Assembly (NCBI GenBank): GCA_049792555.1 | Contig: JBARBA010000557.1 | Location: 1 to 38,659 of the forward strand | Reading direction: 5' to 3' | From: Anaerolineales bacterium | GTDB lineage: Bacteria > Chloroflexota > Anaerolineae > Anaerolineales > Villigracilaceae | Length of the DNA: 38,659 nucleotides | Part shown: positions 19,457-33,744 of the stretch, one piece after another | How the letters are laid out: each line of letters starts with the position of its first letter | Numbering within the stretch: position 1 is the first letter of the stretch | Program-made: the position numbers and the translations under genes | Notes under the pieces: generated by a model | What the model was told of the DNA's origin: nothing | The model's input: the letters and a program-made list of their open reading frames with translations, nothing else | The model's database searches: none

Positions 19457-20863
<1,407 letters not shown>

Positions 20864-20950: not shown

Positions 20951-21721
20951 CTAAGCAACTTCTTCGTATTTTTCGCGCACCCAATCGTAGCCCTGCTCTT
21001 CGAGGTGCAGCGCCAAGTCGGGGCCGCCTGATTCGACGATGCGGCCATCCAGCATGATGTGGACAAAGTGCGGCTTGATGTAGTCGAGCAAACGCTGGTA
21101 GTGGGTGATGACCAACGTGCCCAAGTCGGGGCCGCTCAAGGCGTTGACGCCCTCGGCGACGATGCGCAGCGCGTCGATATCCAGGCCGGAGTCGGTCTCG
21201 TCGAGGATGGCGATCTCCGGTTTGAGGGTGGCCATCTGCAAAATTTCGGCGCGTTTCTTCTCGCCGCCGGAAAAGCCGTCGTTAAGGTAACGCCCGGCGA
21301 AGGCCGCGTCCATCTTGAGCAGTCCCATGCGTTCTTTGAGCATTTTGCGGAACTCAGGGATCGGGACGCCTTTGTCTTCGGGGTTTGCGGCGCGCCGGCG
21401 GGCGTTGACGGCCGTGCGCAGGAAGTTGGCTACGGTTACGCCGGGGATGGAGACGGGGTACTGGAAGGCCAGGAAAATCCCGGCGCGCGAACGTTCGTCC
21501 GGTTTCAATTCAAGCAGGTTTTGGCCCTTGAACGAGACTTCGCCCTCGGTGACGGTGTAATTCGGATGGCCCATCAAGGTGTAAGCCAGTGTGGATTTGC
21601 CGGTGCCGTTGGGGCCCATGATGGCGTGGGTTTCACCTTGCTTGACCGTCAGGTCAACGCCTTTTAGAATTTCCTTGCCCTCGATGCTGACGTGCAGGTT
21701 TTTGATGACTAACTCAGACAT
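20951..21721 (-). CDS. sufC: Fe-S cluster assembly ATPase SufC
   Basis: [24 protein letters not shown], Walker [32 protein letters not shown]. The track extension to 21880 would run over a consensus promoter, so ATG 21721 is used. Confidence 0.94.
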
Positions 21722-21841
21722 GGTCGCTCCGTTTAGTGGGTAGATGTTGGATTTTCGCTGTTGGATTCGAAAGAAACAGGCGCGCGATGGCTCAAGCTTT
21801 TCTCTAAACGCTAAAATCCAATGCCTTGCAGTGAGGGCCGC

Positions 21842-21870
21842 ATTATAGCAAATTTGGGTGAAACTGTCAA
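21842..21870 (-). promoter_or_regulatory. Consensus sigma-70-type promoter for the SUF operon
   Basis: The minus strand reads TTGACA-GTTTCACCCAAATTTGC-TATAAT (perfect -35, 17-bp spacer, perfect -10), about 114 nt upstream of the sufC ATG. Confidence 0.65.
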
Positions 21871-21957
21871 TATTTATCATATTTTTCTAGTATATTCAAA
21901 TGGAATAAGTGACTGCCGCTTGTCCCAAATTATTGGGAAGATGCTTTTCTTTTGCTG

Positions 21958-21963: not shown

Positions 21964-22029
21964 AGGCGCATGATTTTCAGCGGATACACCTATCAAATTT
22001 GATTTTGGCCCCTGCTGTGGAGGATGCGC

Positions 22030-22067
22030 CGCGCCTGCGCTATCGCGCCAGCAGGCGCGTTTTTATT
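22030..22067 (+). terminator. Intrinsic-terminator-like hairpin inside the tyrS 5' leader (candidate attenuator)
   Basis: CGCGCCTGC-(12 nt loop)-GCAGGCGCG is a 9-bp G+C stem, followed by TTTTTATT. It ends 15 nt before the tyrS ATG and 3 nt before the GGAGAGAGAG SD. No upstream plus-strand gene needs terminating here. Confidence 0.55.
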
Positions 22068-22082
22068 CCAGGAGAGAGAGAT

Positions 22083-23294
22083 ATGGATATTAATGAGCAA
22101 GTCGAACTGTTGATGCAGGGCACCGAATACGGTGACGAGAGCCTGCACAAAACCATGGAGAACGAACTGCGCCAGCGCCTGATTGACGCCGAGAAGGAGG
22201 GGCGCAAGCTGCGCATTTACTGCGGTTACGACCCGCGCACCGCCGACCTGCACATCGGTCACACCGTCACCATGCGCAAGCTGCGCCAGTTCCAGGATTT
22301 GGGCCACGATGTGACCTTCCTGATCGGCACGTATACCTCGCTGATCGGCGATCCGTCGGACAAGGACAAGCTGCGTCCGCTGCTGACCCTGGATCAGGTG
22401 CTGGAGAACGCCCAAACCTACGCAAAGCAGGCCTACCGCGTGCTGGACGAGAGCAAGACCACCCTGCGTTATAACCACGAGTGGTTGGCGAAGCTGAGTT
22501 TTGGCGATTTGATCAAGCTGGCTTCGAACTTTACCATCCAGCAGTTCCTGACGCGCGAAGCCTTCCGCAAGCGCTGGGACGCGGAGGATGCGCTCTACCT
22601 GCACGAGTTTTTCTACGCCATCATGCAGGGTTACGACGCTTATGCGTTGCAAGCTGACGTGCAGGTGGGCGGCACCGACCAGTTGTTCAACATCATCACC
22701 GCCGGGCGCAAGATCATGACCGCGCTGGACGCCAAGCCCAACATCGGCATCATCATGGCGATCCTGCCCGGCACGGACGGCGTGGTCAAGATGAGCAAGT
22801 CGCTCGGCAACCACATCCCGCTCAACTCGACGCCGGAGGATATGTACGGCAAGGTCATGTCGATCCCGGATGTGGCCATGCTGCAATTTTCCAAGCTGGT
22901 GACGCGCTGGACGCCTGCGGAAGTGGCGGCCTTCGAGCAGGGTTTGCAGTCCGGGGCGACGCACCCGCGCGACGCCAAGATGAAGCTGGCCCACGAGGTG
23001 GTGGCGATCTACTACAGCCCGGCGCAGGCCGATGCGGCGCAGGAAGCCTTTGTGCGCCTGTTCCAGCAGGGCAGTGTGCCCACAGAGATGCCCGAGTTCG
23101 CCCTCCAGCCGGGGCAGACGGTGATCGAGGTGCTGCTGGCTGCCAGCCTGGTGGCCAGCAAATCGGACGGGCGGCGCATGATCGACCAGAAGGGCGTCAA
23201 GCTGGACGGTGAGACGCTCGAAAAGTTTGATGCGCTTTTCCCGCACGCGGGCGTTTTACAGGTGGGGAAGCGGCGCTTTGTGCGCGTGAAATAG
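22083..23294 (+). CDS. tyrS: Tyrosine--tRNA ligase
   Basis: HIGH motif DLHIGH, KMSKS motif VKMSKSLGN, C-terminal S4-like domain (SKSDGRRMIDQKGVKLDG). Start at ATG 22083 (MDINEQ...). Confidence 0.95.
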   Translation: MDINEQVELLMQGTEYGDESLHKTMENELRQRLIDAEKEGRKLRIYCGYDPRTADLHIGHTVTMRKLRQFQDLGHDVTFLIGTYTSLIGDPSDKDKLRPLLTLDQVLENAQTYAKQAYRVLDESKTTLRYNHEWLAKLSFGDLIKLASNFTIQQFLTREAFRKRWDAEDALYLHEFFYAIMQGYDAYALQADVQVGGTDQLFNIITAGRKIMTALDAKPNIGIIMAILPGTDGVVKMSKSLGNHIPLNSTPEDMYGKVMSIPDVAMLQFSKLVTRWTPAEVAAFEQGLQSGATHPRDAKMKLAHEVVAIYYSPAQADAAQEAFVRLFQQGSVPTEMPEFALQPGQTVIEVLLAASLVASKSDGRRMIDQKGVKLDGETLEKFDALFPHAGVLQVGKRRFVRVK

Positions 23295-23406: not shown

Positions 23407-23931
23407 ATGAAAAAAATCCATGTTTTGCTGACCATCGCTGTATTGTTTTCCGTTGTTTTATCGGCCTGCGGGATTGCCGCCCCGCCACCCACGCCGACCG
23501 CGCAGCCGTCGGACACGCCCCTGCCCACGTTGACGCCCGCTCCGGCTCCGACGGACACGCCCATCCCGACCGATACGCCCATGCTTGAGCCGACCCTTAC
23601 CCAGGCGAATGCCCAACCCACAGGCGCATGTGTGTCTACCGACAAAACCTACGGGTATACACAAGAAAACCCGATCAAAGTCGGCGGCGATGACTTTGGC
23701 GGCCCTCCGCGCGAACGCGCCTACCTGGACAACCTGGCCGGCCCGCACGGCGAGCCGATCTCGTACAACCGCACCGGCTCCCTGGACTCTGGCGACACGA
23801 TCCTGGACGCTTACGAGATCAGCGGCTTGAGCAAACCCGTGACGCTTTACATCGACGAATATTCTTTCACAGAACCGCAAGCGCCGGTGGGTTTCACCTG
23901 CCTGGGCGCGTTTTCGCTGACTGCGCCGTAA
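23407..23931 (+). CDS. Putative lipoprotein with PT-rich linker, unknown function
   Basis: MKKIHVLLTIAVLFSVVLSAC (lipobox LSAC), then PPPTPTAQPSDTPLPTLTPAPAPTDTPIPTDTP, then a globular domain of about 100 aa with no known motif. Confidence 0.68.
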   Translation: MKKIHVLLTIAVLFSVVLSACGIAAPPPTPTAQPSDTPLPTLTPAPAPTDTPIPTDTPMLEPTLTQANAQPTGACVSTDKTYGYTQENPIKVGGDDFGGPPRERAYLDNLAGPHGEPISYNRTGSLDSGDTILDAYEISGLSKPVTLYIDEYSFTEPQAPVGFTCLGAFSLTAP

Positions 23932-23947
23932 AAGGGGAATTCACCCA

Positions 23948-24541
23948 ATGAAAATGAAGACAGCCTTGTGTATTTTGTTGCTGCTGCCCTGTTTCTTCAT
24001 GTCAGCCTGCGGCCCGGGGCAGTTATTCGGCCCCACGCTAACGCCCACGTCCACCCCCACGTTGACGCCCACGCCGACAGCCACTCCTACGCTGACGCCC
24101 ACGCTCACACCCACTCGCACGGCGACGCTTACCCCAACGCCGCTCCCGGGTCTGGGCGTAAAAGCCAGCGAAGTTACCAGCGCTTACAATTTCGATTTCA
24201 CCTTTAGCGATATCCCGGATGTCGACGGTCAGCCCGCCCAAAAGGGCGTCTCTACGAATGGGTTCGACACTATCACCCTGGTCGGCAAGCCTTACCTTTT
24301 CAGGGCGGAACTTAAAATCAATATGTCGCAAGAAAACAGCATGATTGCCACCGCCGAATGGATCCTGTTCCTCGAAATGACCTCGCACGGCGGCAAGGCA
24401 GCGGCAGATTGGGTGCGTGATAGTTATCCAGAAGCCGTCGAGAAGGGCGAGATCGAAAAGACCTTCGGCAAAGCGAAGGTCGTCCTCCAGGCCACGAATG
24501 GGTTTTTTACTTTGATTGTTACGCCGGTTGAAAATCCATAA
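23948..24541 (+). CDS. Putative lipoprotein with PT-rich linker, unknown function
   Basis: MKMKTALCILLLLPCFFMSAC, then TLTPTSTPTLTPTPTATPTLTPTLTPTRTATLTPTP, then a domain of about 130 aa. Lies 16 nt after the previous gene. Confidence 0.68.
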   Translation: MKMKTALCILLLLPCFFMSACGPGQLFGPTLTPTSTPTLTPTPTATPTLTPTLTPTRTATLTPTPLPGLGVKASEVTSAYNFDFTFSDIPDVDGQPAQKGVSTNGFDTITLVGKPYLFRAELKINMSQENSMIATAEWILFLEMTSHGGKAAADWVRDSYPEAVEKGEIEKTFGKAKVVLQATNGFFTLIVTPVENP

Positions 24542-24610: not shown

Positions 24611-27600
24611 ATGAAATTCGTCCTTTGTATTGACAATACCGGGTATGAAACCTCGCTTATCAAGCGAAAAGTGTATAAAGTCATCCCGGACGCGCCGGCA
24701 GAGAAAGATGACTTCATTCGCATCGTCGATGAACGCGGCGAGGATCATCTTCACCATACCAGTCATTTTGCTTTTATGGAACTACCGGCGGACGTCGATT
24801 ATTTGCCTGAACTCACGACCGGTGAAAAAGCGAGCGGTTATCCTGGCTATGTACATCGTTTTTGGGGTATCCTATGGGAAGAGCTGCAACGCTCTGCGCC
24901 GGGGGACAAATTTCTTTCCCAAAAGGCTTTAAGCTGGCTTCAAGATCATTCGCGTTGGGAAGACCCCGGTTGGACTTTCGTCTGGGAAATTCTACTTCAG
25001 TACCCGAAAAAGCTGCCCGAAGGCGTGACTGTCCAATCCATGGCCCAACTCGGCGTTCAATGGCTGGCTGGCAGAGAAGAAACAGACTCTTGGGAATTTG
25101 TCTGGGAAGCCCTGCTCCAGCACCCGGACGACCTGCCAGAAGGTGTGACCATCCAATCCCTGATCCAACTTGGTGTTCAATGGCTGGTTGGCAAAGAACA
25201 TAAAGACGCCTGGAACTTCGTCTGGGAAATTCTATTCCAGCACCCGGACGATTTGCCCGAAGGCGTGACCGTTAAATCCCTGATCCAGGCCGGCGTTCAA
25301 TGGCTGATTGGCAACGAAGACAAAGTCTCATGGTCTTTCGTCTGGCAAATTCTACTCCGGCATCCGGATGACCTGCCCGAAGGCGTGACCGCCCAATCCC
25401 TGGCCCAATTTGGCGTCCGCTGGCTGGCTGGCAACGAAGATAAAGCCCCGTGGTCTTTCGTCTGGCAAACCTTGCTCCGGCACCCAGACGAGCTTTCCGA
25501 AGGCGTGAATGTCAAATCCCTGATCCAGATCGGCGCTCATTGGTTGCCTGGCAGGGAACATACGGATTCCTGGAAATTCATTTGGGAAATTCTACTCAAG
25601 TACCCGGATGACCTGCCCGAAGGCGTGACCGTTCGATCCCTGATCCAACTCGGCCTTCAGTGGCTGCCTGGAAAAGAGGATAAAGACTCGTGGGATTTCG
25701 TCTGGCAAACCCTGCTTCAACACAAGGATGACCTGCCCAAAGGAGTGACCGTCAAGTCCCTTATCCAACTTGGCGTTCAATGGTTGTCTGGCAGGGAACA
25801 TAAAGACGCCTGGAGCTTCGTCTGGGAGGTTCTGCTCCAGCACCCGAACGACCTGCCCGAAGGTGTGACCTTCCGATCTCTGATCCAACGCGGCGCTCAT
25901 TGGTTGGCTGGCAAAGAAGAGAAAGTCTCGTGGGTCTTCGTCTGGCAAATCTTGCTTCAACACCCGAACAAACTGCCCGAAGATGTGACTGTCCAATCTT
26001 TGATCCAACTTGGCGTTCAATGGCTGCCCGGCAAAGAAGACAGCGACCAGTGGTCTTTCGCCTGGCGTATTGTGCTCGAACATTCGAATGACCTGCCCAA
26101 AGGCGTGACCGTCCAATCCCTGCTCCAACTCGGCGTTGAGTGGCTGACCGGTAAAGAAGATAATGACCAGTGGGATTTCGTCTGGCAAACCCTGCTTCAG
26201 CAGCGTCCGGACGACTTGCCCGAAGGCGCGACCGTCCAATCCCTGATCCAACTTGGCGCTCATTGGTTGCCCGGCAGGGAACATACAGACGCCTGGAAAT
26301 TCATCTGGGAAGCTCTACTCTGGCACTCGAACGACTTGCTTGAAAGTGTGGCCGTCCAATCCCTGATCCGGCTCGGCGTTGACTGGCTGGTTGGTAAAGA
26401 AGACAACGACCAGTGGTCTTTCGTTTGGCGCGCCCTGCTCGAACATCTGGACGACCTGCCCGAAGGCGTGACATCCCAATCCCTGGTCCAACTTGGCGTT
26501 GACTGGCTGGTTGGCAGAGAAGACAGCGATCAGTGGTCTTTCGTTTGGCAAGCTCTGTTTCAGCACCCGAACGACCTGGCTGGAGGCGCAACCGTTCAAT
26601 CTCTGACCCGACTCGGCAATCAGTGGCTGGTTGGCAAAGAAGAGAAAGACCCGTGGTCTTTCGTCTGGGAAATTCTGCTCCAGCACCCGAATGATTTACC
26701 AGAGGGTATGACCGTCCAATCCCTGGTCCAACTTGGCGCTCAATGGCTGGTTGGAAAAGAAGACAAAGACCAATGGGCTTTTGTCTGGCGTGTCCTGCTT
26801 GAACACCCGGACGACCTGCCCGAAGGCGTGAACGTCCAATCGCTGCTCCAACTCGGCGTTCAATGGCTGGTTGGTAAAGAAGACAAAGACCAGTGGTCTT
26901 TTGTCTGGCAAGTCCTGCTTCGGCGCCCAAACGACCTGCCCGAAGGCGTGACCGTCAAATCTCTGCTCCAACTTGGCAGCCACTGGCTGCCCGGCAGGGA
27001 AGACAAAACCTCGTGGTCTTTCATCTGGCAAATCCTGCTTCAGCACTCGAACAAGCTGCCCAAAAGCGTGACCGTCCAATTTCTGCTGCGATGCGGCGCT
27101 AAGTGGCTGTCCGGCAGGGAAGACAAAGACTCGTGGGCTTTCATCTGGCAAGTCCTGCTCGAATACCCGAATGACCTGCCTGAAGGCGTGACCGTTCGGT
27201 CTCTCATCCAACTCGGCAGCCGTTGGTTGGCCGGCAAAGAAGAGAAAGACCAATGGTCTTTCATCTGGCGTATTGTGCTCGAACACCCGGACGACCTGCC
27301 CGAAGATGTGACCGTTCGATCCCTGGTCCAAAGCGGCGCTCAATGGCTGCCCGGTAAAGAGTGTAAAGACGAGTGGGATTTCGTCTGGCAAAGCTTGCTC
27401 CAACACCCGGACGACCTGCCCGAAGGTGTAACCGTCCAATCTTTGATCCAACTCGGCGTTCAATGGTTGCGGTTGCCTGTCAGGGAACATACAGACGCCT
27501 GGGACTTCGTCTGGGAGGTTCTGCTCCAGCACCCGAACGACTTGCCGGAAGGCGTGACCGTCCAATCCCTGCTCGAACTCGGCGACCAATGGCTGACCGG

Positions 27601-28804
27601 CAACGAAGAGATAAGTCAATGGTCTTTTGTCTGGCAAACCCTGTTCAACTTACGGGATAAATTCTCAATTCCTCTGGATGGCTTGTTAACCAAAGGAACG
27701 AATTGGCTTAAGAACCACCCATCTCGAAAGGATTGGAACTATATTTGGCGCGATATTCTTAATTGCCAATATCAGCTCGAAAACATTGTTTCGATCAAAG
27801 AATTGCTTGCGCTCGGCCAAACCTGGTTGAGATCGACTGCGAGCGATGACCAGTGGCCTTTTGTCTGGCGCACCCTGCTCAAACACTCGGATGATTTGCC
27901 CGAAGGCGTGACTTTCCAAGCCCTGATCCAACTTGGCGTTCAATGGTTGCCCGGCAGGGAAGATAAAGACTCTTGGGAATTTATCTGGGAAGTCCTGCTC
28001 CTGCACCCGGGTGACCTGCCCGAAGGTACAACCGTCCAATCCCTGGTCCAACTCGGCGCCCAATGGCTGGCCGGCAAAGAAGATAAAGCCCCGTGGTCTT
28101 TCGTCTGGCACTTCCTGCTCCGACACCCGGATGAACTGCCCGAAGGCGTGACCGTGCAATCTCTGCTCCAACTCGGCGTGGAATGGCTGGCTGGTAGAGA
28201 TGATAAAGAGCAGTGGCCTTTCGTCTGGCAAATTTTGTACTATCGAAAAAAACTGCTTAAGAAAAACGACGCCAATGATCTATTCCGCGCCGGTGTGCAT
28301 TGGCTCATGTATCGCAAAGGCAGGGATAAGGAGTGGAGCATTATCTTTGAAGATTGCCTGCAAAACGGGATACTGGAACCGAGGCTCCTGAGAATGGGCG
28401 CCAGGTGGATTATCGAAAACGCCAAACGCTCCGAGGCGATTGGCCTTGCGTTAATCATTGCAAGACATTACGAGAAGTTGGAGCCAAAAGAACGAAACGA
28501 GCTTCACAAATGGATCAAAGATTGGGTCTACAAGACGGATTATAAAAGCCTGCAATGGACTTATGGCTGGGAGGCATACTGGCAAATGATGCCCACCGTC
28601 GAAACCGTTGATTTGGCCCTCAAATGGATCGAGATAAGCCCGGAAAATATCGGAAGCGCGAGTTGGTTGATCAACAAGCTTTTCGAAACAAGGCGATCGG
28701 ATGTCATTCAGAGAGTTGCCGTGTGGCACAGCCATCACCCCGACCACCCGGTTGCCGGAAAAATAGAAAGAAAACTACGAAAAATTCCAAAGCCTGCTGA
28801 GTAG
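24611..28804 (+). CDS. 1397-aa cytoplasmic protein built almost entirely of tandem 40-aa Trp-rich helical-type repeats (no family recognised)
   Basis: Single uninterrupted ORF, no signal peptide. Unique N-terminal domain of about 80 aa (MKFVLCIDNTGYETSLIKRKVYKVIPD...). About 27 consecutive units of consensus WsFVWqiLLqHPdDLPEGVTVQSLIQLGvQWLxGKEDKDx follow, then degenerate units to the C-terminus. Confidence 0.8.
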   Translation: MKFVLCIDNTGYETSLIKRKVYKVIPDAPAEKDDFIRIVDERGEDHLHHTSHFAFMELPADVDYLPELTTGEKASGYPGYVHRFWGILWEELQRSAPGDKFLSQKALSWLQDHSRWEDPGWTFVWEILLQYPKKLPEGVTVQSMAQLGVQWLAGREETDSWEFVWEALLQHPDDLPEGVTIQSLIQLGVQWLVGKEHKDAWNFVWEILFQHPDDLPEGVTVKSLIQAGVQWLIGNEDKVSWSFVWQILLRHPDDLPEGVTAQSLAQFGVRWLAGNEDKAPWSFVWQTLLRHPDELSEGVNVKSLIQIGAHWLPGREHTDSWKFIWEILLKYPDDLPEGVTVRSLIQLGLQWLPGKEDKDSWDFVWQTLLQHKDDLPKGVTVKSLIQLGVQWLSGREHKDAWSFVWEVLLQHPNDLPEGVTFRSLIQRGAHWLAGKEEKVSWVFVWQILLQHPNKLPEDVTVQSLIQLGVQWLPGKEDSDQWSFAWRIVLEHSNDLPKGVTVQSLLQLGVEWLTGKEDNDQWDFVWQTLLQQRPDDLPEGATVQSLIQLGAHWLPGREHTDAWKFIWEALLWHSNDLLESVAVQSLIRLGVDWLVGKEDNDQWSFVWRALLEHLDDLPEGVTSQSLVQLGVDWLVGREDSDQWSFVWQALFQHPNDLAGGATVQSLTRLGNQWLVGKEEKDPWSFVWEILLQHPNDLPEGMTVQSLVQLGAQWLVGKEDKDQWAFVWRVLLEHPDDLPEGVNVQSLLQLGVQWLVGKEDKDQWSFVWQVLLRRPNDLPEGVTVKSLLQLGSHWLPGREDKTSWSFIWQILLQHSNKLPKSVTVQFLLRCGAKWLSGREDKDSWAFIWQVLLEYPNDLPEGVTVRSLIQLGSRWLAGKEEKDQWSFIWRIVLEHPDDLPEDVTVRSLVQSGAQWLPGKECKDEWDFVWQSLLQHPDDLPEGVTVQSLIQLGVQWLRLPVREHTDAWDFVWEVLLQHPNDLPEGVTVQSLLELGDQWLTGNEEISQWSFVWQTLFNLRDKFSIPLDGLLTKGTNWLKNHPSRKDWNYIWRDILNCQYQLENIVSIKELLALGQTWLRSTASDDQWPFVWRTLLKHSDDLPEGVTFQALIQLGVQWLPGREDKDSWEFIWEVLLLHPGDLPEGTTVQSLVQLGAQWLAGKEDKAPWSFVWHFLLRHPDELPEGVTVQSLLQLGVEWLAGRDDKEQWPFVWQILYYRKKLLKKNDANDLFRAGVHWLMYRKGRDKEWSIIFEDCLQNGILEPRLLRMGARWIIENAKRSEAIGLALIIARHYEKLEPKERNELHKWIKDWVYKTDYKSLQWTYGWEAYWQMMPTVETVDLALKWIEISPENIGSASWLINKLFETRRSDVIQRVAVWHSHHPDHPVAGKIERKLRKIPKPAE
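24971..28213 (+). repeat. In-frame tandem repeat of about 120 bp, about 27 units (coding)
   Basis: Units are 40 aa except one of 41, one of 42 and one of 38. Units 23-24 (27620-27853) are strongly divergent. The antisense frames are also open because of the repeat composition. Confidence 0.9.
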
Positions 28805-28876
28805 ATGTCCGCATAATCTGAACGAATACCCTGGCGGGCGCGCGTCCGCGTTCTCTTTTCCACATGTGCGGTAGAG

Positions 28877-28949: not shown

Positions 28950-29312
28950 TCAGGAGGTTGGCGTTGTTGGCGGCGTGGCCGTTTTCCTGGCCGGTTTCTT
29001 CTTTTCAGACAGGCGCGTGCCGCCCACCAATTCATATTGTGAAGAGTTGTCGCCGTAGATGCCCTTGATCCCGTTGCGCACGCGCTTGAGCATATCCCAG
29101 AGATTGTCGAGCAGCGTGACGCGTTCATTGCTCAGGTCGGTCACTTGCTTTTCGGCTGTGGTGAGCTGCTTTCGGTTGGCGACCGCCAGGTTGAAGGCCT
29201 CTTCCAACGTCGCCAGGGAAATATCGCCGATTTTCAAGTCCGGGTTGATTTTCTGCAAGGCTTGTATGGTATCTTCGGCTTCTTGAATAATATCGTGTTT
29301 CGGCATAATCAT
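28950..29312 (-). CDS. Hypothetical 120-aa protein, predicted helical/coiled-coil with a basic P/T-rich tail
   Basis: AAAGGAGAAT SD just before the ATG at 29312. Sequence ...QALQKINPDLKIGDISLATLEEAFNLAVANRKQLTTAEKQVTDLSNERVTLLDNLWDMLKRVRN..., ending KKKPARKTATPPTTPTS. No motif recognised. Confidence 0.6.
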   Translation of the reverse strand: MIMPKHDIIQEAEDTIQALQKINPDLKIGDISLATLEEAFNLAVANRKQLTTAEKQVTDLSNERVTLLDNLWDMLKRVRNGIKGIYGDNSSQYELVGGTRLSEKKKPARKTATPPTTPTS

Positions 29313-29367
29313 TCTCCTTTTGAATGGTTTCGGCCCGCTTCCCGCATGGGAGCGGTTTGATAAACAA

Positions 29368-29397
29368 ATTATGCACCCATCCTGATTTAACTGTCAA
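29368..29397 (-). promoter_or_regulatory. Near-consensus promoter for the 120-aa gene
   Basis: The minus strand reads TTGACA-(18 nt)-CATAAT. The -35 lies 32 bp from the first unit of the 21-bp array. Confidence 0.5.
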
Positions 29398-29428
29398 GAT
29401 ATCGCGCCCTTACATTTTCCAAAGGTGC

Positions 29429-29710
29429 GGACGTAACGTCCCGGACACTGGACGTAACGTCCTTTGCGCCGGACGTAACGTCCTTTTGGCTGGATGTAAC
29501 GGCGCGGACACTGGACGTAACGGCGCGGACGCCGGACTCAACGTCCTTTTTGCTGGACGTAACGACGTGGATGCTGGATCAACGACTTTTGCGCCTGATG
29601 TAACGTCACGAGTGCTGGACGTAACGACTTTTATGCTAGACGTAACGGCGCGGGCGCTGGACGTAACGGCAAGAATGCCAGACGAAACGGCAAAGCTTCT
29701 GTGCGAAACG
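29429..29710. repeat. Tandem array of 14 units of 21 bp (one unit 20 bp) with conserved core GGACGTAACG; palindromic GGACGT-A-ACGTCC in units 1-3
   Basis: Unit starts are 29429, 29450, 29471, 29492, 29513, 29534, 29555, 29576, 29596, 29617, 29638, 29659, 29680 and 29701. The core is conserved, the 8-11 nt spacers vary, and the last units are degenerate. Confidence 0.92.
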
Positions 29711-29970
29711 AGCAAAGATGCCACGCGCGAGCGCCCACCAGGCGCGCTGACCGTTAGAACGGGTGTATGTAATGATTGCCAGTGTGGATGTGTTGGTCGT
29801 GAGGGTAGATCAGCGCCCCAACGTTTACCAAGAACCCTTGCAAATCTGATTGTCTATATGAATTCAGTACACTTGCCTATTCCCTTTTAGCTCGCGAATC
29901 TGTACAATGTATACACCAATCGCGCCAGTCTCAAACTGGGAATTCTTGTTCATCAATGTCGGAGGGAACC

Positions 29971-32900
29971 ATGCGCACGAAAAACAAAATCTCGTTGATA
30001 CACAAAAGTCTTTATGGAATTATGTTACTGGGGCTGTTCCTTGCTACCGTTAGCACTCCCGGTTTTTCAACCGCGCGTGCGCAGCAGGTGGCAACTGCCG
30101 TGCCTACAACTCACACACACGAAGTAGACACTTTAACTCCCACGCCTGATATATCGCGTAATTTACCGGGAATAGTGGGCGGAGATCAAGCTACCCCAGG
30201 CGAATGGCCGTGGCAGGTGGCTATCGTATTTAATTCTGCGACAAATATATATAATGGTTTTACTTGCGGTGGTTCGTTGGTTGGTTATCAATGGGTGCTT
30301 ACGGCTACTCATTGTGTAATTCACCGTGATAAAGACGGTCATAAAATAGGATATTTGCGCCCAGACGAAATAGATATAATTGCAGGGATATATGATTTAA
30401 AAACCCCCGCTAGCGGGTATCAACGTCGGCATGTGAGCCAGATTATTGTGAATGATCTTAACTATAGTGATGTTCCAGACGATAATGACATTACCTTGCT
30501 GAAATTGGATAGCCTGATAACAATCGGCGGGAGTGGCGCAACCAGAACGGCGATTATTCCGCTTGTGCCATCTACTATAGGTAGCTTAATAGGTATTGAT
30601 TCATGGGTTACCGGCTGGGGAAAAACTACGCCACTAATCATTCCCACTCCCACTCCGCAACCTTCGCAAACTCCGCCGCCTTCGCAATTAGTATCGCAAT
30701 TTTTGCTTAAAGTACAACTACCAATTCGTGCCAATGCAATATGTAATGATAGCTCTCATTACAATGGACATATAACAGACAACATGTTATGCGCTGGTTT
30801 AGACGCTGGGGGTCATGATTTTTGTAATGGCGATTCTGGTGGCCCATTGGTGATTGATAATGGCGGAGGCGGAAACTGGAATTTAGCAGGCATAGTTTCT
30901 TTTAGCGGGGTCTCTAGGAGTATGAACATGGATTGCGCCGTGCCAAATTTGGAAGGAGTATATACACGAGTATCCAGATACGTCGACTGGATACGTAGCT
31001 ATGTTCCTCTTTGTGGCGCTCTCCTTAACATCACTACGCAGGGAGGTGGAACAGCCACCTCGTTTGGTTCTAATACATCAGGTTGTCCCTACCGTGAGGT
31101 TACAAGCGGACCCACAGTCACCTTGATGGCTCCAGCCGATTCAGGCTGGTCTTTCTCACATTGGATTGGCGCGAGTGGGGGGGCGAGCACAAATTATACA
31201 GTCACAGGCCCTGCAACTGTTACGGCTGTGTTTACGCAGGATGGCGGCTCTGACACAACGCCTCCCACCGGTTCATGGACAAGCCCCGGCAATGGGCAGA
31301 CTATTTCCGCGCGAACGGTTAACCTGACCGTTAACGCCAGTGACAACTCCGGCGGCAGCGGGGTCAGGGAAGTGCGCTGGAGCGCCAAATGGAATAATCA
31401 ATGGTCCAACATTGGCGCGGATAGCGTATCGCCTTATTCCATCACCTGGGATATGTGTACTTCTGACGTTCCCAATGGCGACGTTGAATTGGGAATGGAA
31501 GTATGGGACAACGCCAATAACCAATGGGTGTATAGCGAACATTACACAAATTACCACATCAACAAAAATTACACCTGCACTGCCAATGGAACAACCAACT
31601 GGTCAACGAAATATTACAACGGCCACGACCACTGGTCGGATACCAATAACTTTAACGGTCAGATGTGTGAAGAAACCATTAATAGCATCGGTTTGGAAAA
31701 AAATTACGGCTCTGCTGCGCCATGCAATAATGGCGTGTATGATAACTGGGTGGCTGAATATAATGGCACCATCAATTTTGCGCCTGGAAATTACGTCTTC
31801 CAGGTTCAAAATGATGATGGTCTTAAAATGTGGGCAAATGGGGCGGATGTTGTTAGTCGAGGCGGAAGTGACAGCCCATCCTATGCTTGCCCTGCCCATT
31901 ACTTCAGCGGCAACGTACCCATTCGGGTGATTTTGAATGAGGAAGCCGGTGACGCCCAAGTCAAAATCGGATGGACTACGGATACAAGTGTATGTAATTT
32001 GCCGGATGTCTTCAATAAAGCCAACCCATCAGATGGCACAGCATTCCAATTAACCAGTCCGGTGTTGGAATGGGGTAGCAGCAATGGTCAGAAAGATTAT
32101 GCTTATTGCGTCGACACATCCAACAATAATAATTGTGACACAGGCTGGCAAGGTGTTGGTAATGTCACCAGTACATCGTTAAGCAATCTTGCAGTCGGAA
32201 CTTATTATTGGCAGGTACGCGCCCAAAATGTTGGGGGAGAAACCTACGCTAATAACAATACATGGTGGTCGTTTACCGTGCAACCTGAATCAACGGTTCC
32301 ATCTGCAAATTTTGAAGCATTCTCGTTAAGTGGCATGGCTCCACTCACAACAACTTTCCATATTCTTAATATGGCGAATATCACGTATTGCTTCTGGGAT
32401 TATGGTGATGGTCAGACTAGCGAAACCTGCACTGAGATTCACGACCATACATATACCAATACAGGTTCGTATACCGTGGCTCTATGGGTAAATGGTCCCA
32501 ACGGACATGATTTTACGTCTCAAACAGACTATATTAATGTTCTTCCTCCTCCTGATACGGAGCCACCCACCGTTTCATGGACTGTGCCAACTACCGATAA
32601 ACAAGTTTATGATGTTGCAAACCAAATCATTCCGCTTGGAGTCGGTGCGAGTGATAATGTGGGAATCTCATCGGTTGTTTTCAGTCGTTGGGATTATGCC
32701 AACCAGGTATATGTTAATATCGGAACTATATCCATGTCCCCTTATCGCGTCAATTTTGACACGAGTGCGCTCTTACCAGGCTGGAATGAAATTGATGCTA
32801 ATGCTTATGATTCGGCTGGTAATTCTGCTTTTAGTTATATCTTTCTAAATCATGTTAGCCCAATTACAAAAACTATCTCTTCTGTCGCCGCTCAAGACGG

Positions 32901-33441
32901 CTGGATACTCGAATTGAGCGAGACCAGTAACGCAGGTGGCGCACTGAACAGCAGCGCAACCACCTTCTATCTGGGCGATGACGCGACAAAGAAGCAATAT
33001 CGCGGCATTCTGTCGTTCAGCACCGGGGCCAGCCTGCCGGATAACGCCGTCATCACCGGGGTGACGCTCAAGGTCAGGCAGCAGGCCATCCTCGGCGGCG
33101 GCAACCCCGTAACCATGTTCCAGGGCTTCATGTTCGATGTCAAAAATGGCTTCTTCGGCAGCGCCTCGACGCTGCAAACCGGCGATTTCCAGGCAGCGGC
33201 CAGCGCAACCTATGGCCCCTCTGCGCCCGCCCCGGTCGGCGGCTGGTATAGCTTCAACCTAACCGGCGCTAAACTCTTCGTCAACAAACTGGCAACCGGT
33301 TTCGGCCTGACCCAAATCCGCCTGCGCTTCAAGCTGGACGATAATAACAACGCGATTGCCAACTATCTCAGTTTGTACAGCGGCAATGTCACGACGGCGG
33401 CCTATCGTCCGCAGTTGGTGATTACATATTACCTGCCGTAG
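29971..33441 (+). CDS. Secreted multidomain trypsin-like (S1) serine protease with PA14-like, PKD-like, Ig-like and C-terminal DNRLRE-like domains
   Basis: GGAGGG SD lies 4 nt before ATG 29971 (MRTKNK..., signal peptide). Protease motifs: IVGGDQATPGEWPWQVAI, LTATHC (His), DNDITLLKL (Asp), GDSGGPL (Ser). PA14-like NWVAEYNGTINFAPGNYVFQVQNDDGLKMW, PKD-like WDYGDGQTS...HTYTNTGSYTV, and a C-terminus ending RPQLVITY. Confidence 0.88.
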   Translation: MRTKNKISLIHKSLYGIMLLGLFLATVSTPGFSTARAQQVATAVPTTHTHEVDTLTPTPDISRNLPGIVGGDQATPGEWPWQVAIVFNSATNIYNGFTCGGSLVGYQWVLTATHCVIHRDKDGHKIGYLRPDEIDIIAGIYDLKTPASGYQRRHVSQIIVNDLNYSDVPDDNDITLLKLDSLITIGGSGATRTAIIPLVPSTIGSLIGIDSWVTGWGKTTPLIIPTPTPQPSQTPPPSQLVSQFLLKVQLPIRANAICNDSSHYNGHITDNMLCAGLDAGGHDFCNGDSGGPLVIDNGGGGNWNLAGIVSFSGVSRSMNMDCAVPNLEGVYTRVSRYVDWIRSYVPLCGALLNITTQGGGTATSFGSNTSGCPYREVTSGPTVTLMAPADSGWSFSHWIGASGGASTNYTVTGPATVTAVFTQDGGSDTTPPTGSWTSPGNGQTISARTVNLTVNASDNSGGSGVREVRWSAKWNNQWSNIGADSVSPYSITWDMCTSDVPNGDVELGMEVWDNANNQWVYSEHYTNYHINKNYTCTANGTTNWSTKYYNGHDHWSDTNNFNGQMCEETINSIGLEKNYGSAAPCNNGVYDNWVAEYNGTINFAPGNYVFQVQNDDGLKMWANGADVVSRGGSDSPSYACPAHYFSGNVPIRVILNEEAGDAQVKIGWTTDTSVCNLPDVFNKANPSDGTAFQLTSPVLEWGSSNGQKDYAYCVDTSNNNNCDTGWQGVGNVTSTSLSNLAVGTYYWQVRAQNVGGETYANNNTWWSFTVQPESTVPSANFEAFSLSGMAPLTTTFHILNMANITYCFWDYGDGQTSETCTEIHDHTYTNTGSYTVALWVNGPNGHDFTSQTDYINVLPPPDTEPPTVSWTVPTTDKQVYDVANQIIPLGVGASDNVGISSVVFSRWDYANQVYVNIGTISMSPYRVNFDTSALLPGWNEIDANAYDSAGNSAFSYIFLNHVSPITKTISSVAAQDGWILELSETSNAGGALNSSATTFYLGDDATKKQYRGILSFSTGASLPDNAVITGVTLKVRQQAILGGGNPVTMFQGFMFDVKNGFFGSASTLQTGDFQAAASATYGPSAPAPVGGWYSFNLTGAKLFVNKLATGFGLTQIRLRFKLDDNNNAIANYLSLYSGNVTTAAYRPQLVITYYLP

Positions 33442-33537
33442 GGAAGGGGCTTCCCAACCCATCCCTACAGGGAAATGATACAATCAGGGATCAGGAGTAA
33501 TTGCGCTCAGATTACCTGCCAAACATGGAGATCGGAT

Positions 33538-33744
33538 ATGAAACTAAAAGTCGTAATTCACTCCGCTGAAGAAGGCGGATATTGGGCAGAAGTGCCCGCC
33601 ATCCCCGGTTGCGCCACACAAGGCGAGACTTTTGAAGAACTGCTTCAAAATTTATACGAGGCCGTGGATGGCTGTCTCTCGGTCGATATTGACGAAAAAG
33701 TAAAACTCGCCAAAGATGCCCACATGCTGGAAATCGTCGTATGA
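33538..33744 (+). CDS. hicB: HicB-family antitoxin (UPF0150)
   Basis: MKLKVVIHSAEEGGYWAEVPAIPGCATQGETFEELLQNLYEA is the typical HicB N-domain. GGAG lies 7 nt upstream. ATGA overlap with hicA. Confidence 0.8.
   Translation: MKLKVVIHSAEEGGYWAEVPAIPGCATQGETFEELLQNLYEAVDGCLSVDIDEKVKLAKDAHMLEIVV

What the first reader, a model, noticed from the sequence alone, without database searches (positions are those of the whole stretch)
24611..28804. 1397-aa protein made of about 27 near-identical 40-residue Trp-rich tandem repeats, a repeat family I cannot place
**Seen in the sequence**
- From aa 121 to 1201 the protein is a continuous run of units W-x-F-[VI]-W-x-x-L-L-x-H-P-x-D-L-P-E-G-V-T-V-Q-S-L-I-Q-L-G-x-x-W-L-x-G-[KR]-E-[DE]-K-D-x.
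- Each 40-aa unit has three invariant Trp, so the protein carries roughly 85 Trp.
- DNA-level identity between units is high, which implies recent expansion or concerted evolution.
- Degenerate units extend the solenoid at both ends.
- There is no signal peptide. A unique N-terminal domain of about 80 aa (MKFVLCIDNTGYETSLIKRKVYKVIPDAPAEKDDFIRIVDERGEDHL...) precedes the repeats.
- Variable positions cluster at unit positions 2, 6-7, 10, 29-30, 33 and 35-40, so they could form one surface.

**Inference**
- This is a two-helix-per-unit alpha-solenoid, like HEAT, ARM or TALE repeats in geometry though not in sequence. It could act as a scaffold or a modular ligand or nucleic-acid binder.
- The unit length and motif do not match TPR (34), PPR (35), TALE (34), ANK (33) or Sel1 as I know them.
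Basis: partly seen in the sequence, partly recalled or inferred. Interest (0 to 1): 0.72.

Follow-up and report, generated by a model that had tools for sequence, protein, structure and literature searches.

The report
Immune-sensor repeat array without its engine
The giant tryptophan-rich repeat protein is real and is the ligand-sensing half of a bacterial NLR-like (STAND, nSTAND5-type) immune protein, but its ATPase and toxic effector domains have been replaced by a tiny SH3-like domain that normally exists as a separate small protein in an uncharacterised two-gene module.

Summary
The 1397-aa ORF (24611-28804, +) and its 27 tandem ~40-aa Trp-rich units are real. They are not near-identical: mean identity between units is 60% (protein) and 71% (DNA), dS is about 0.68, and the longest exact repeat is 37 nt. 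Recent expansion and assembly collapse are therefore both unlikely.

The repeat has no Pfam, NCBIfam or PDB model, but it can be placed. All 39 detectable homologues (E down to 1e-224) are 0.9-1.7-kaa STAND NTPases of the Pfam nSTAND_NTPase5 family. They carry TIR, CHAT, trypsin or nuclease effectors, and the repeats form their C-terminal array.

The window protein is collinear with the C-terminal ~60% of TIR-nSTAND5 proteins (pre-repeat cap, array, C-cap). It has no NTPase or effector, and none lies elsewhere in the window. AlphaFold2 gives a confident two-helix-per-unit alpha-solenoid of generic TPR/HAT type.

Residues 1-62 form an SH3-like barrel. It belongs to a very large unannotated family (at least 8000 clusters) of ~75-aa proteins, almost always encoded just downstream of a basic 77-aa partner gene. 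That partner is absent here.

Best reading: an NTPase-less sensor/adaptor derivative of a STAND immune receptor. Its function is inferred, not shown. It is a new variant of a known kind.

The parts
24611..28804 (+). Complete ORF, 1397 aa, about 163 kDa, pI 5.1: SH3-like domain, linker, pre-repeat cap, 27-unit Trp-rich array and C-terminal cap.
   Evidence: ORF listing; composition and mass. No exact copy is on record in the public gene index.
24611..24796 (+). N-terminal SH3-like beta-barrel domain (aa 1-62). It belongs to a large unannotated family of ~75-aa stand-alone proteins with the motif F-x-x-C-x-D-N-x-G-Y...R-[VI]-[VI]-D-E-S-G-E-D-Y-L-Y.
   Evidence: phmmer against 1.84e9 representatives gives 1881 hits at E<=1e-3, best 1.4e-23 and 66% identity. 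A profile search gives at least 7999 clusters at E<=1e-5. AF2 pLDDT is about 93 with five strands. Foldseek matches SH3 domains at TM 0.55-0.64. A family HMM scores 100 bits on the window.
24797..24853 (+). Linker (aa 63-81), the junction between the SH3-like domain and the STAND-derived part.
   Evidence: Low pLDDT at aa 51-81. Homology to nSTAND5 proteins starts at nt 24854.
24854..24970 (+). Pre-repeat cap, a degenerate first unit (aa 82-120, HRFWGILWEE...SWLQDHSRWEDPG). It is collinear with aa ~580-625 of TIR-nSTAND5 proteins.
   Evidence: tblastn and blastp to P0001, P0004 and P0002 give 41-45% identity. Helices are predicted at aa 85-95 and 100-111.
24971..28213 (+). Array of 27 tandem ~40-aa Trp-rich helical-hairpin units (aa 121-1201). 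Units 23-24 (nt 27620-27853) are degenerate.
   Evidence: Unit parsing; TRF period 120; per-column conservation; AF2 solenoid for units 1-8; dN/dS 0.36 between units.
28214..28801 (+). C-terminal cap of degenerate units (aa 1202-1397). It is collinear with the extreme C-termini of TIR-nSTAND5 proteins.
   Evidence: blastp gives P0004 42%, P0001 39%, P0002 33% and P0003 26% identity, each running to the end of the homologue.
28834..28853 (+). Terminator-like GC-rich hairpin followed by a T-rich tail, 30 nt after the stop codon.
   Evidence: Consensus scan only. It is not evidence of function.

Best explanation
**What it is**
- The gene encodes the sensor half of an nSTAND5-type STAND (bacterial NLR-like) conflict or immunity protein, cut free of its engine.
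- The ancestor was a single polypeptide: a TIR effector, a P-loop STAND NTPase, helical domains, a Trp-rich repeat array and a C-cap.
- In this gene the first ~580 residues (effector plus NTPase) are replaced by a 62-aa SH3-like domain and a short linker. The pre-repeat cap, the 27-unit array and the C-cap are kept intact.

**How it is built**
- Each 40-aa unit is a helical hairpin.
- The invariant W1, W5, L8/L9, L15, L24, G28, W31 and L32 most likely build the stacked hydrophobic core.
- Positions 2, 6, 7, 10, 25, 29, 30 and 33 and the 35-40 loop vary between units. They most likely form a long, strongly acidic, solvent-exposed binding surface.

**How it most likely works**
- It most likely acts as a protein-binding receptor or scaffold that recognises a large, probably basic, protein ligand. 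This is how TPR-like sensors of Avs and STAND proteins bind phage proteins.
- It cannot signal by NTP-driven oligomerisation. Output must go through the SH3-like domain, through partners supplied in trans, or by sequestering the ligand as a decoy or sponge.

**Shown versus inferred**
- Shown: the homology, collinearity, absence of NTPase and effector, the predicted fold, and the family membership of the SH3-like domain.
- Inferred: ligand binding, an immune role, and the output route.
For: - All 39 homologues found (E 2.6e-224 to 1e-13) carry the repeats C-terminal to a P-loop NTPase. Most match PF25199 nSTAND_NTPase5, and many also carry TIR_2, CHAT, trypsin, a Cap4/LmuA-like nuclease or a C-terminal S1 domain.
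- A Walker A motif is present in 38 of the 39. The exception, P0013, is a split gene with an nSTAND5 ORF immediately upstream.
- The window pre-repeat cap and C-cap are collinear with aa ~580 to the end of the TIR-nSTAND5 proteins P0001-P0004.
- No NTPase or effector remnant exists anywhere in the 38.6-kb window in six frames.
- AF2 predicts a two-helix-per-unit solenoid at pLDDT above 90.
- Framework codons are under purifying selection (dN/dS 0.21). Variable positions are more relaxed (0.58), with pN at or above pS at positions 2, 25 and 33.
- The ORF is intact over 4.2 kb.
- Of the residues that are invariant or nearly invariant in the SH3-like family, only Y46 is changed (to H).
- Literature on function: STAND proteins have an effector-NTPase-sensor layout, most sensors are TPR-like helical repeats, and they bind phage proteins directly (PMC13581612).
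- Literature precedent: the Avs7 sensor also occurs in NTPase-less defence proteins such as Dsr1 and a HEPN fusion, which respond to the same trigger (PMC13581612).
Against: - No ligand, partner or phenotype is known for any member of this repeat family.
- PADLOC has no model for it.
- NTPase-less precedents such as Dsr1 carry a catalytic effector. A 62-aa SH3-like barrel has no obvious catalytic potential.
- The usual partner gene of the SH3-like family is absent from the window.
- The flanking genes are housekeeping or secreted proteins, not defence genes.
- No orthologue with this architecture was found, so conservation of the fusion cannot be shown.
- Expression is untested, and there is no clear Shine-Dalgarno sequence or promoter.
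Confidence: 0.6

Rival explanations
1. **Evolutionary relic.** A deletion or recombination joined a small SH3-like gene in frame to the 3' part of a TIR-nSTAND5 gene. The product is non-functional or on its way to decay, and the ORF is still open only because the event is recent.
For: - The architecture is unique. None of the 39 repeat homologues has the SH3-like domain.
- Essentially none of the best 150 or 120 SH3-like family members is fused to a large protein.
- Split or decaying nSTAND5 genes do exist, for example P0013.
- No ribosome-binding site or promoter is evident.
- The usual partner gene is missing.
Against: - The 4.2-kb ORF has no stop or frameshift.
- Both parts are well diverged from their nearest known relatives: at most 73% identity for the SH3-like domain and 37-44% for the array. 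The fusion does not look very recent, although database sampling is thin.
- Framework residues are kept in all units, with dN/dS 0.21. Part of that signal may predate the fusion.
Confidence: 0.2
2. **Housekeeping scaffold.** The protein is an ordinary cytoplasmic alpha-solenoid adaptor (TPR/HAT-like) that assembles a cellular complex. It has no role in conflict or immunity, and the similarity to STAND sensors reflects only shared ancestry of a repeat module.
For: - The neighbours are housekeeping or secreted-protein genes: SUF ABC ATPase, TyrRS, lipoproteins and a secreted protease.
- The structural matches are generic scaffolds such as spliceosomal HAT proteins, LapB and PUF.
Against: - Every detectable sequence relative of the array sits in a STAND NTPase with death or defence-type effectors (TIR, CHAT, trypsin, nuclease).
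- Collinearity includes the caps specific to the TIR-nSTAND5 subgroup.
- TIR-nSTAND5 relatives are themselves solitary genes in housekeeping contexts, so the context does not discriminate.
Confidence: 0.13
3. **Modular nucleic-acid binder.** The array reads a nucleic-acid sequence one unit per base or base group, like TALE, PUF or PPR proteins.
For: - The array is long and regular, with variable positions on one helical face.
- PUF proteins appear among the weak Foldseek matches.
- Many nSTAND5 relatives carry a C-terminal S1 RNA-binding domain.
Against: - The array has a net charge of about -67 and pI 4.7.
- There is no TALE-like pattern of near-identical units with a two-residue code. Variation is spread over about 13 of 40 positions.
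- The window protein has no S1 domain.
- Foldseek TM-scores to PUF are only about 0.3.
Confidence: 0.03
4. **Assembly artefact.** The array length or the N-terminal fusion results from mis-assembly of repeats or a chimeric contig.
For: - The window comes from an unidentified assembly.
- Exact copies of the protein and of the window's SufB-like protein (19457-20863, -) are not on record elsewhere, so there is no independent assembly to compare.
Against: - Units differ by at least 17% at the DNA level.
- The longest exact repeat is 37 nt, which is too short to mislead assemblers that use k of 55 or more, or 150-nt reads (my estimate from common assembler settings).
- The junction region (24797-24970) is unique sequence inside one continuous reading frame.
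Confidence: 0.04

Closest known systems
TIR-nSTAND5 STAND NTPases (Pfam PF13676 TIR_2 + PF25199 nSTAND_NTPase5 + unnamed C-terminal Trp-rich repeats), e.g. hits P0001-P0004
   Same: - They share a homologous repeat array: E 1e-157 to 1e-224, and 37-44% identity over 34-62% of the query.
- The unit is the same 40-aa motif, W-x-[FH]-[VI]-W...L-P-E-G...G-x-x-W-L-x-x-R-E-D.
- They share the pre-repeat cap and the C-terminal cap.
- They are solitary genes, not operons.
   Different: - The window protein lacks the TIR effector, the P-loop NTPase and the ~300-aa helical region that follows it.
- It has an SH3-like domain instead.
- It has more units (27) than any homologue found, which have 3-26.
Avs7 / Dsr1 shared sensor (STAND and non-STAND defence proteins using one TPR-like sensor; PMC13581612)
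   Same: This is the same architectural idea. A helical-repeat sensor typical of a STAND family is re-used in a protein without the STAND NTPase, fused to a different N-terminal module.
   Different: - There is no sequence relationship to the Avs7 sensor.
- Dsr1 carries a catalytic SIR2 effector, whereas the N-terminal module here is a 62-aa SH3-like barrel with no evident enzymatic capacity.
- No defence phenotype is known for the present family.
TPR / HAT / Sel1-type alpha-solenoid repeats
   Same: - The units are helical hairpins of 34-41 residues stacked into a solenoid.
- Some family members have the TPR-like 34-aa period.
- The best Foldseek matches are HAT- and TPR-repeat proteins.
- Conserved aromatic residues are spaced along the helices as in HAT repeats (this point is from my own knowledge of HAT repeats).
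   Different: - No Pfam repeat model matches, even at E<=1.
- Foldseek gives E >= 2.5e-3 and TM 0.15-0.33.
- Three invariant Trp per unit and a conserved G-[KR]-E-D loop are not features of those families.
Small two-gene (toxin-antitoxin-like) modules; fused sensor-antitoxin proteins such as CapRel(SJ46) (recalled from my own knowledge, not tested here)
   Same: - The SH3-like domain family is normally a ~75-aa mildly acidic protein. It is encoded 0-10 nt downstream of a ~77-aa strongly basic protein (pI 10.3).
- The flanking genes vary from locus to locus.
- That gene organisation is the one typical of type II TA pairs.
   Different: - Neither small protein matches any Pfam, NCBIfam, PHROG, PADLOC or PDB family.
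- Toxicity and neutralisation are untested.
- The basic partner is absent from the window.

Membership tests
nSTAND5 STAND NTPase (Pfam PF25199) | P-loop STAND NTPase domain (Walker A/B) in the polypeptide | tested here: not met
   - Pfam and NCBIfam scans of the window protein find no NTPase.
- tblastn with the N-terminal halves of P0001, P0005, P0010 and P0020 finds nothing in the whole window except the pre-repeat cap.
- All 39 homologues have an NTPase, one of them as a split gene.
nSTAND5 STAND NTPase (Pfam PF25199) | C-terminal Trp-rich helical repeat array with family-specific caps (the presumed sensor) | tested here: met
   - phmmer E-values go down to 2.6e-224.
- The pre-repeat cap and C-cap are collinear with P0001-P0004.
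nSTAND5 STAND NTPase (Pfam PF25199) | N-terminal effector domain (TIR, CHAT, trypsin or Cap4/LmuA-like nuclease) | tested here: not met
   - The window protein has no effector-domain hit in Pfam or PADLOC.
- Its N-terminus is an SH3-like barrel.
- Homologues carry these effectors.
TPR / HAT / Sel1 / HEAT / PPR / ANK repeat families (Pfam) | Significant match to the family sequence model | tested here: not met
   hmmscan against Pfam-A at E<=1 returns only a sub-threshold DUF6890 hit. No PDB sequence relative was found.
TPR-like alpha-solenoid (structural class) | Antiparallel two-helix unit stacked into a superhelix | tested here: met
   - AF2 gives pLDDT above 90 with helices at unit positions 1-10 and 21-32.
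- Only weak, generic Foldseek matches were found. The structural class is supported, but no specific family is.
TALE / PUF-type modular nucleic-acid binders | Basic binding surface, with one or two code residues per otherwise constant unit | tested here: not met
   The array has a net charge of about -67. Variation is spread over about 13 positions.
Unnamed SH3-like small-protein family ('DESGEDYLY' family) | Sequence membership and a five-strand small barrel | tested here: met
   - The best phmmer hit is 1.4e-23 at 66% identity.
- A family HMM scores 100 bits on the window.
- The invariant residues L16, Y22, R37, D40, D45 and L47 are retained.
- The AF2 model has pLDDT about 93.
Unnamed SH3-like small-protein family ('DESGEDYLY' family) | Encoded immediately downstream of the basic ~77-aa 'GRWRKLKG...HWYEAHGIG' partner gene | tested here: not met
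   - The partner is present in 64 of 81 loci, and in 64 of the 71 loci with enough upstream sequence.
- tblastn of the partner against the window finds nothing better than E=1.1.
Type II toxin-antitoxin system (for the SH3-like/partner module) | One product toxic, the other neutralising it by direct binding | not testable with these tools
   Only gene organisation, size, charge and variable context are available.

The most novel reading that the evidence does not exclude
The protein may be a new kind of NTPase-independent immune sensor. A STAND-type repeat array is wired to one component of a toxin-antitoxin-like pair.

In this reading the SH3-like domain is the neutraliser or adaptor for a basic ~77-aa 'GRWRKLKG...HWYEAHGIG' protein encoded elsewhere in the genome. 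Binding of an invader protein along the acidic solenoid would release or recruit that partner and convert recognition into growth arrest.

A weaker variant of the same idea is a dedicated decoy or sponge that titrates the ligand of nSTAND5 receptors.
Probability: 0.12. Interest if true: 0.7.

Novelty: new variant of a known kind. Interest (0 to 1): 0.45.

Why it matters
- **It places an unplaced repeat.** The Trp-rich 34-41-aa repeat has no model in Pfam-A, NCBIfam or PADLOC. It is in fact the presumed sensor of a whole family of bacterial NLR-like proteins (nSTAND5) with TIR, CHAT, protease and nuclease effectors.
- **It gives a natural sensor-only construct.** A sensor with no NTPase or effector is well suited to ligand hunting by pull-downs or structural work, without toxicity. 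It also adds a second example, after Avs7/Dsr1, of STAND sensors being re-used outside STAND proteins.
- **It exposes an unstudied module.** The work uncovers a very abundant two-gene module (at least 8000 protein clusters) with no annotation. Its SH3-like member has been captured here as a fusion partner.
- **If the rivals are right.** If the protein is only a relic or an ordinary scaffold, the finding is of modest interest.

Tried and rejected
- **Family libraries.** Pfam, NCBIfam, PADLOC and PDB sequence searches of the whole protein gave only sub-threshold noise: DUF6890, a phage holin model and ROS kinase.
- **Exact look-ups.** The repeat protein and the window's SufB-like protein (19457-20863, -) are not on record, so the source organism could not be identified directly. 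Chloroflexota is only suggested, by the names attached to the closest SH3-like relatives.
- **First N-terminal search.** A word-index search with the N-terminal 120 aa found nothing. The exhaustive phmmer search was needed.
- **First MSA for structure prediction.** An alignment built from shifted segments of the same protein was useless, because MAFFT simply staggered the overlapping pieces. It was replaced by an alignment with homologues.
- **Foldseek.** Neither model gave a specific functional relative. The array matched generic solenoids and the N-domain matched generic SH3 or PRC barrels.
- **The partner protein.** It has no Pfam, NCBIfam, PHROG or PDB match.
- **Viral contigs.** No relative of the repeat protein was found by pattern scan, and only 8 loci carry the SH3-like domain, so a phage origin is not supported.
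- **Literature.** 'nSTAND5' appears in no searchable paper, and the Nature 2026 STAND survey has no held supplements.
- **Rfam.** Nothing was found in the window.
- **Ideas considered and rejected.**
  - Recent expansion or concerted evolution.
  - Assembly collapse.
  - A TALE-like code.
  - An upstream pseudogenised NTPase.

Full report
**1. The observation**

The ORF 24611..28804 (+) encodes 1397 aa. Parsing on W-x-[FY]-x-W gives 27 consecutive units from aa 121 to 1201. Of these, 24 are exactly 40 aa and the others are 41, 42 and 38 aa. Units 23-24 are degenerate. Degenerate units also flank the array: aa 82-120 upstream and aa 1202-1397 downstream.

The protein has 99 Trp (7.1%). Tandem Repeats Finder reports a 120-bp period over 24971-27643 (22.2 copies, 73% matches) and 27874-28231 (3 copies, 76%). 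W1, W5, L15, G28, W31 and L32 are invariant in the 24 exact 40-aa units. The most variable positions are 2, 33, 10, 7, 30, 29, 25 and 40.

The claim of 'near-identical' units with high DNA identity does not hold.
- Mean pairwise identity is 60% for protein and 71% for DNA, with a DNA maximum of 83%.
- Synonymous divergence between units is about 0.68.
- Identity is flat at 72-75% whatever the distance between units.
- The longest exact repeat in the ORF is 37 nt.

The array is therefore old and diverged. Assembly collapse is unlikely.

**2. What the repeats are**

No Pfam, NCBIfam, PADLOC or PDB sequence model matches the protein. A search of 5.8 billion proteins returned 39 homologues, with E from 2.6e-224 to 1e-13.

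These are proteins of 865-1681 aa in which the same repeats form the C-terminal part. Upstream lies a P-loop STAND NTPase, matched in most of them by Pfam PF25199 'Novel STAND NTPase 5'. The N-terminal modules are TIR_2, CHAT, a trypsin-like protease or a Cap4/LmuA-like nuclease. Many also have a C-terminal S1 domain.

A Walker A motif is present in 38 of the 39. The exception, P0013, is a split gene whose upstream ORF carries nSTAND_NTPase5. The unit period varies between lineages (34, 37-41 aa), and the unit number ranges from 3 to 26. The window protein has the most units.

**3. Collinearity and what is missing**

The closest relatives, P0001-P0004, are all TIR-nSTAND5 proteins. The window's pre-repeat cap (aa 79-125) aligns with their aa ~580-625. 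Its C-terminal cap (aa 1202-1397) aligns with their extreme C-termini at 26-42% identity. The window protein thus corresponds to the C-terminal ~60% of such a protein.

Six-frame searches of the whole window with the N-terminal halves of four homologues found no TIR, nuclease or NTPase remnant. The genes immediately upstream are two PT-rich lipoproteins. The NTPase and effector are truly absent in cis.

**4. Structure**

AlphaFold2 was run on aa 1-440 with an alignment of homologues. It gave pLDDT above 90 throughout the repeats, with helices at unit positions 1-10 and 21-32.

Foldseek against the PDB gave only generic solenoid matches: spliceosomal HAT-repeat proteins, LapB TPR and PUF. None reached E<=1e-3, and TM-scores were 0.15-0.33.

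The variable positions 2/6/10 and 25/29/33 follow an i, i+4, i+8 spacing on the two helices. The conserved W/L positions fall between them. This fits a conserved core and one variable exposed face.

Between units, dN/dS is 0.21 for framework codons and 0.58 for variable codons. The array carries a net charge of about -67, which argues against direct nucleic-acid binding.

**5. The N-terminal domain**

Residues 1-62 are not unique. An exhaustive phmmer search of 1.84 billion representatives found 1881 relatives at E<=1e-3. The best has E 1.4e-23 and 66% identity. Almost all of the best 150 are 55-190-aa proteins (most 70-120 aa), a few of them tandem duplications.

A profile search of the 5.8-billion set found at least 7999 clusters at E<=1e-5. 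The 120 listed are all unannotated and nearly all 71-81 aa. The few that carry source names are from Chloroflexi, Anaerolineae and Binatia MAGs, and the closest is 73% identical.

There is no Pfam or NCBIfam model. Only a weak match to PHROG 34144, of unknown function, was found. With the family alignment, AlphaFold2 gives a five-stranded small barrel at pLDDT about 93. It resembles SH3 domains at TM 0.55-0.64. Matches to viral models are equally generic.

None of the 39 nSTAND5 homologues contains this domain, and the window has only this one copy.

**6. Context of the SH3-like family**

In 64 of 81 loci, the SH3-like gene is immediately preceded on the same strand by a 77-79-aa gene. That is 64 of the 71 loci with at least 300 nt upstream.

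The partner encodes a strongly basic protein (pI 10.3). Its motif is G-R-W-R-K-L-K-G...E-L-H-W-Y-E-A-H-G-I-G. It is the only conserved neighbour. It has no Pfam, NCBIfam, PHROG or PDB match.

The same pair is called as two adjacent genes in independent assemblies. The size, the abutting genes, the basic/acidic pairing and the variable context resemble a type II toxin-antitoxin-like cassette. That is only an analogy.

The partner gene is absent from the window. In one locus (L025) the SH3-like domain is fused to a MucR/Ros-like zinc-finger protein, as judged by motif. Fusions of this domain therefore do occur, but they are rare. The module is rare in viral contigs, with 8 loci.

**7. Surroundings**

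The neighbours are as follows.
- A SUF-type ABC ATPase (20951-21880, -).
- TyrRS (21999-23294, +).
- Two lipoproteins (23407-24541, +).
- A 120-aa ORF of unknown function (28950-29312, -).
- A secreted trypsin/Big/PKD/PA14 protein (29956-33441, +).
- A HicB-like gene (33475-33744, +).

No defence island or mobile element is evident. The TIR-nSTAND5 relatives are themselves solitary genes in housekeeping contexts, so context does not discriminate.

A terminator-like hairpin follows the ORF at 28834-28853. No convincing promoter or Shine-Dalgarno sequence precedes it.

**8. Interpretation**

STAND/NLR proteins have an effector-NTPase-sensor layout. Most bacterial sensors are TPR-like helical repeats that bind phage proteins directly and trigger NTPase-driven oligomerisation (PMC13581612). 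The same paper shows that one sensor type (Avs7) also occurs in NTPase-less defence proteins, namely Dsr1 and a HEPN fusion, which respond to the same trigger.

By homology and by this precedent, the window protein is best read as an NTPase-less derivative of a TIR-nSTAND5 receptor. It keeps an intact ligand-binding solenoid and has gained an SH3-like adaptor domain.

It cannot oligomerise through a NOD. Its output must therefore run through the SH3-like domain, through trans partners, or by ligand sequestration. These last steps are inference.

Rivals and their probabilities:
- A recent non-functional fusion relic (0.2).
- An ordinary non-immune scaffold (0.13).
- An assembly artefact (0.04).
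- A nucleic-acid binder (0.03).

**9. Novelty and score**

The repeat family is implicitly known as the C-terminal region of Pfam's nSTAND5 proteins, but it has no model or description of its own. I found no paper that names nSTAND5. The sensor-only, SH3-fused architecture was not seen in any other sequence searched.

This is a new variant of a known kind. It is interesting mainly as a natural sensor-only construct and as a pointer to a large uncharacterised two-gene module. Interest is 0.45.

Noticed in passing
window 29429-29692 (+): About 13 copies of a 10-nt motif, GGACGTAACG, are spaced every 21 nt (two helical turns). There are 12 matches at one mismatch or fewer, against 2.2 expected by chance. 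They lie in the 640-nt divergent intergenic region between the 120-aa ORF 28950-29312 (-) and the secreted protease gene 29956-33441 (+). The 188-aa ORF listed across the array (29324-29890) is probably spurious. This could be an iteron-like or transcription-factor binding-site array. There is no Rfam hit.
   Followed up: partly
loci L002-L081 (e.g. L005 871-1330; L044 5747-6222; L085 5764-6222): A very abundant, unannotated two-gene module. It consists of a basic ~77-aa protein (motif GRWRKLKG...ELHWYEAHGIG, pI about 10.3) followed within 0-10 nt by an acidic ~75-aa SH3-like protein (motif DESGEDYLY). There are at least 7999 protein clusters, the flanking genes vary, and neither protein matches Pfam, NCBIfam or PDB. 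It is toxin-antitoxin-like in organisation only.
   Followed up: partly
L025 5968-6708: Here the SH3-like domain is fused in frame to a MucR/Ros-like zinc-finger regulator (246 aa; the C-L-E-C-G...H...H and KWG motifs were read by eye). This is the only other fusion of the domain seen. It was not checked with Pfam.
   Followed up: no
L099 621-4554 (protein P0013): An nSTAND5 repeat protein is split into two overlapping ORFs: a 386-aa ORF with nSTAND_NTPase5 and a 930-aa repeat ORF. This is a frameshifted or decaying relative, and the same 930-aa ORF recurs in a second assembly (L100).
   Followed up: partly
L082 5175-12350 and L083 5237-11261: Two TIR-nSTAND5 relatives (P0001 and P0004) share local synteny. 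Each has a BipA/TypA-like GTPase and a MazE-like/ParE-like pair divergently upstream of the receptor gene.
   Followed up: no
window 23407-24541 (+): Two tandem lipoprotein-like genes (174 and 197 aa) lie directly upstream of the repeat gene. Each has a signal peptide with a Cys lipobox and a long Pro/Thr-rich linker. Neither has a Pfam match.
   Followed up: no
window 29956-33441 (+) and 33475-33744 (+): A 1161-aa secreted protein combines trypsin, Flg_new_2, Big_7, PA14 and PKD domains. It is followed by a HicB-like antitoxin gene with no obvious HicA next to it.
   Followed up: no
L001 4301-6883 (Deltaproteobacteria MAG JAPLJZ010000161.1): A stand-alone 86-aa SH3-like family member lies 30 nt downstream of a 763-aa exported protein whose C-terminal half looks caspase-like. 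I read the H-G...D-A-C-F-S-G motifs by eye and did not test them. There is no basic partner gene at this locus.
   Followed up: no
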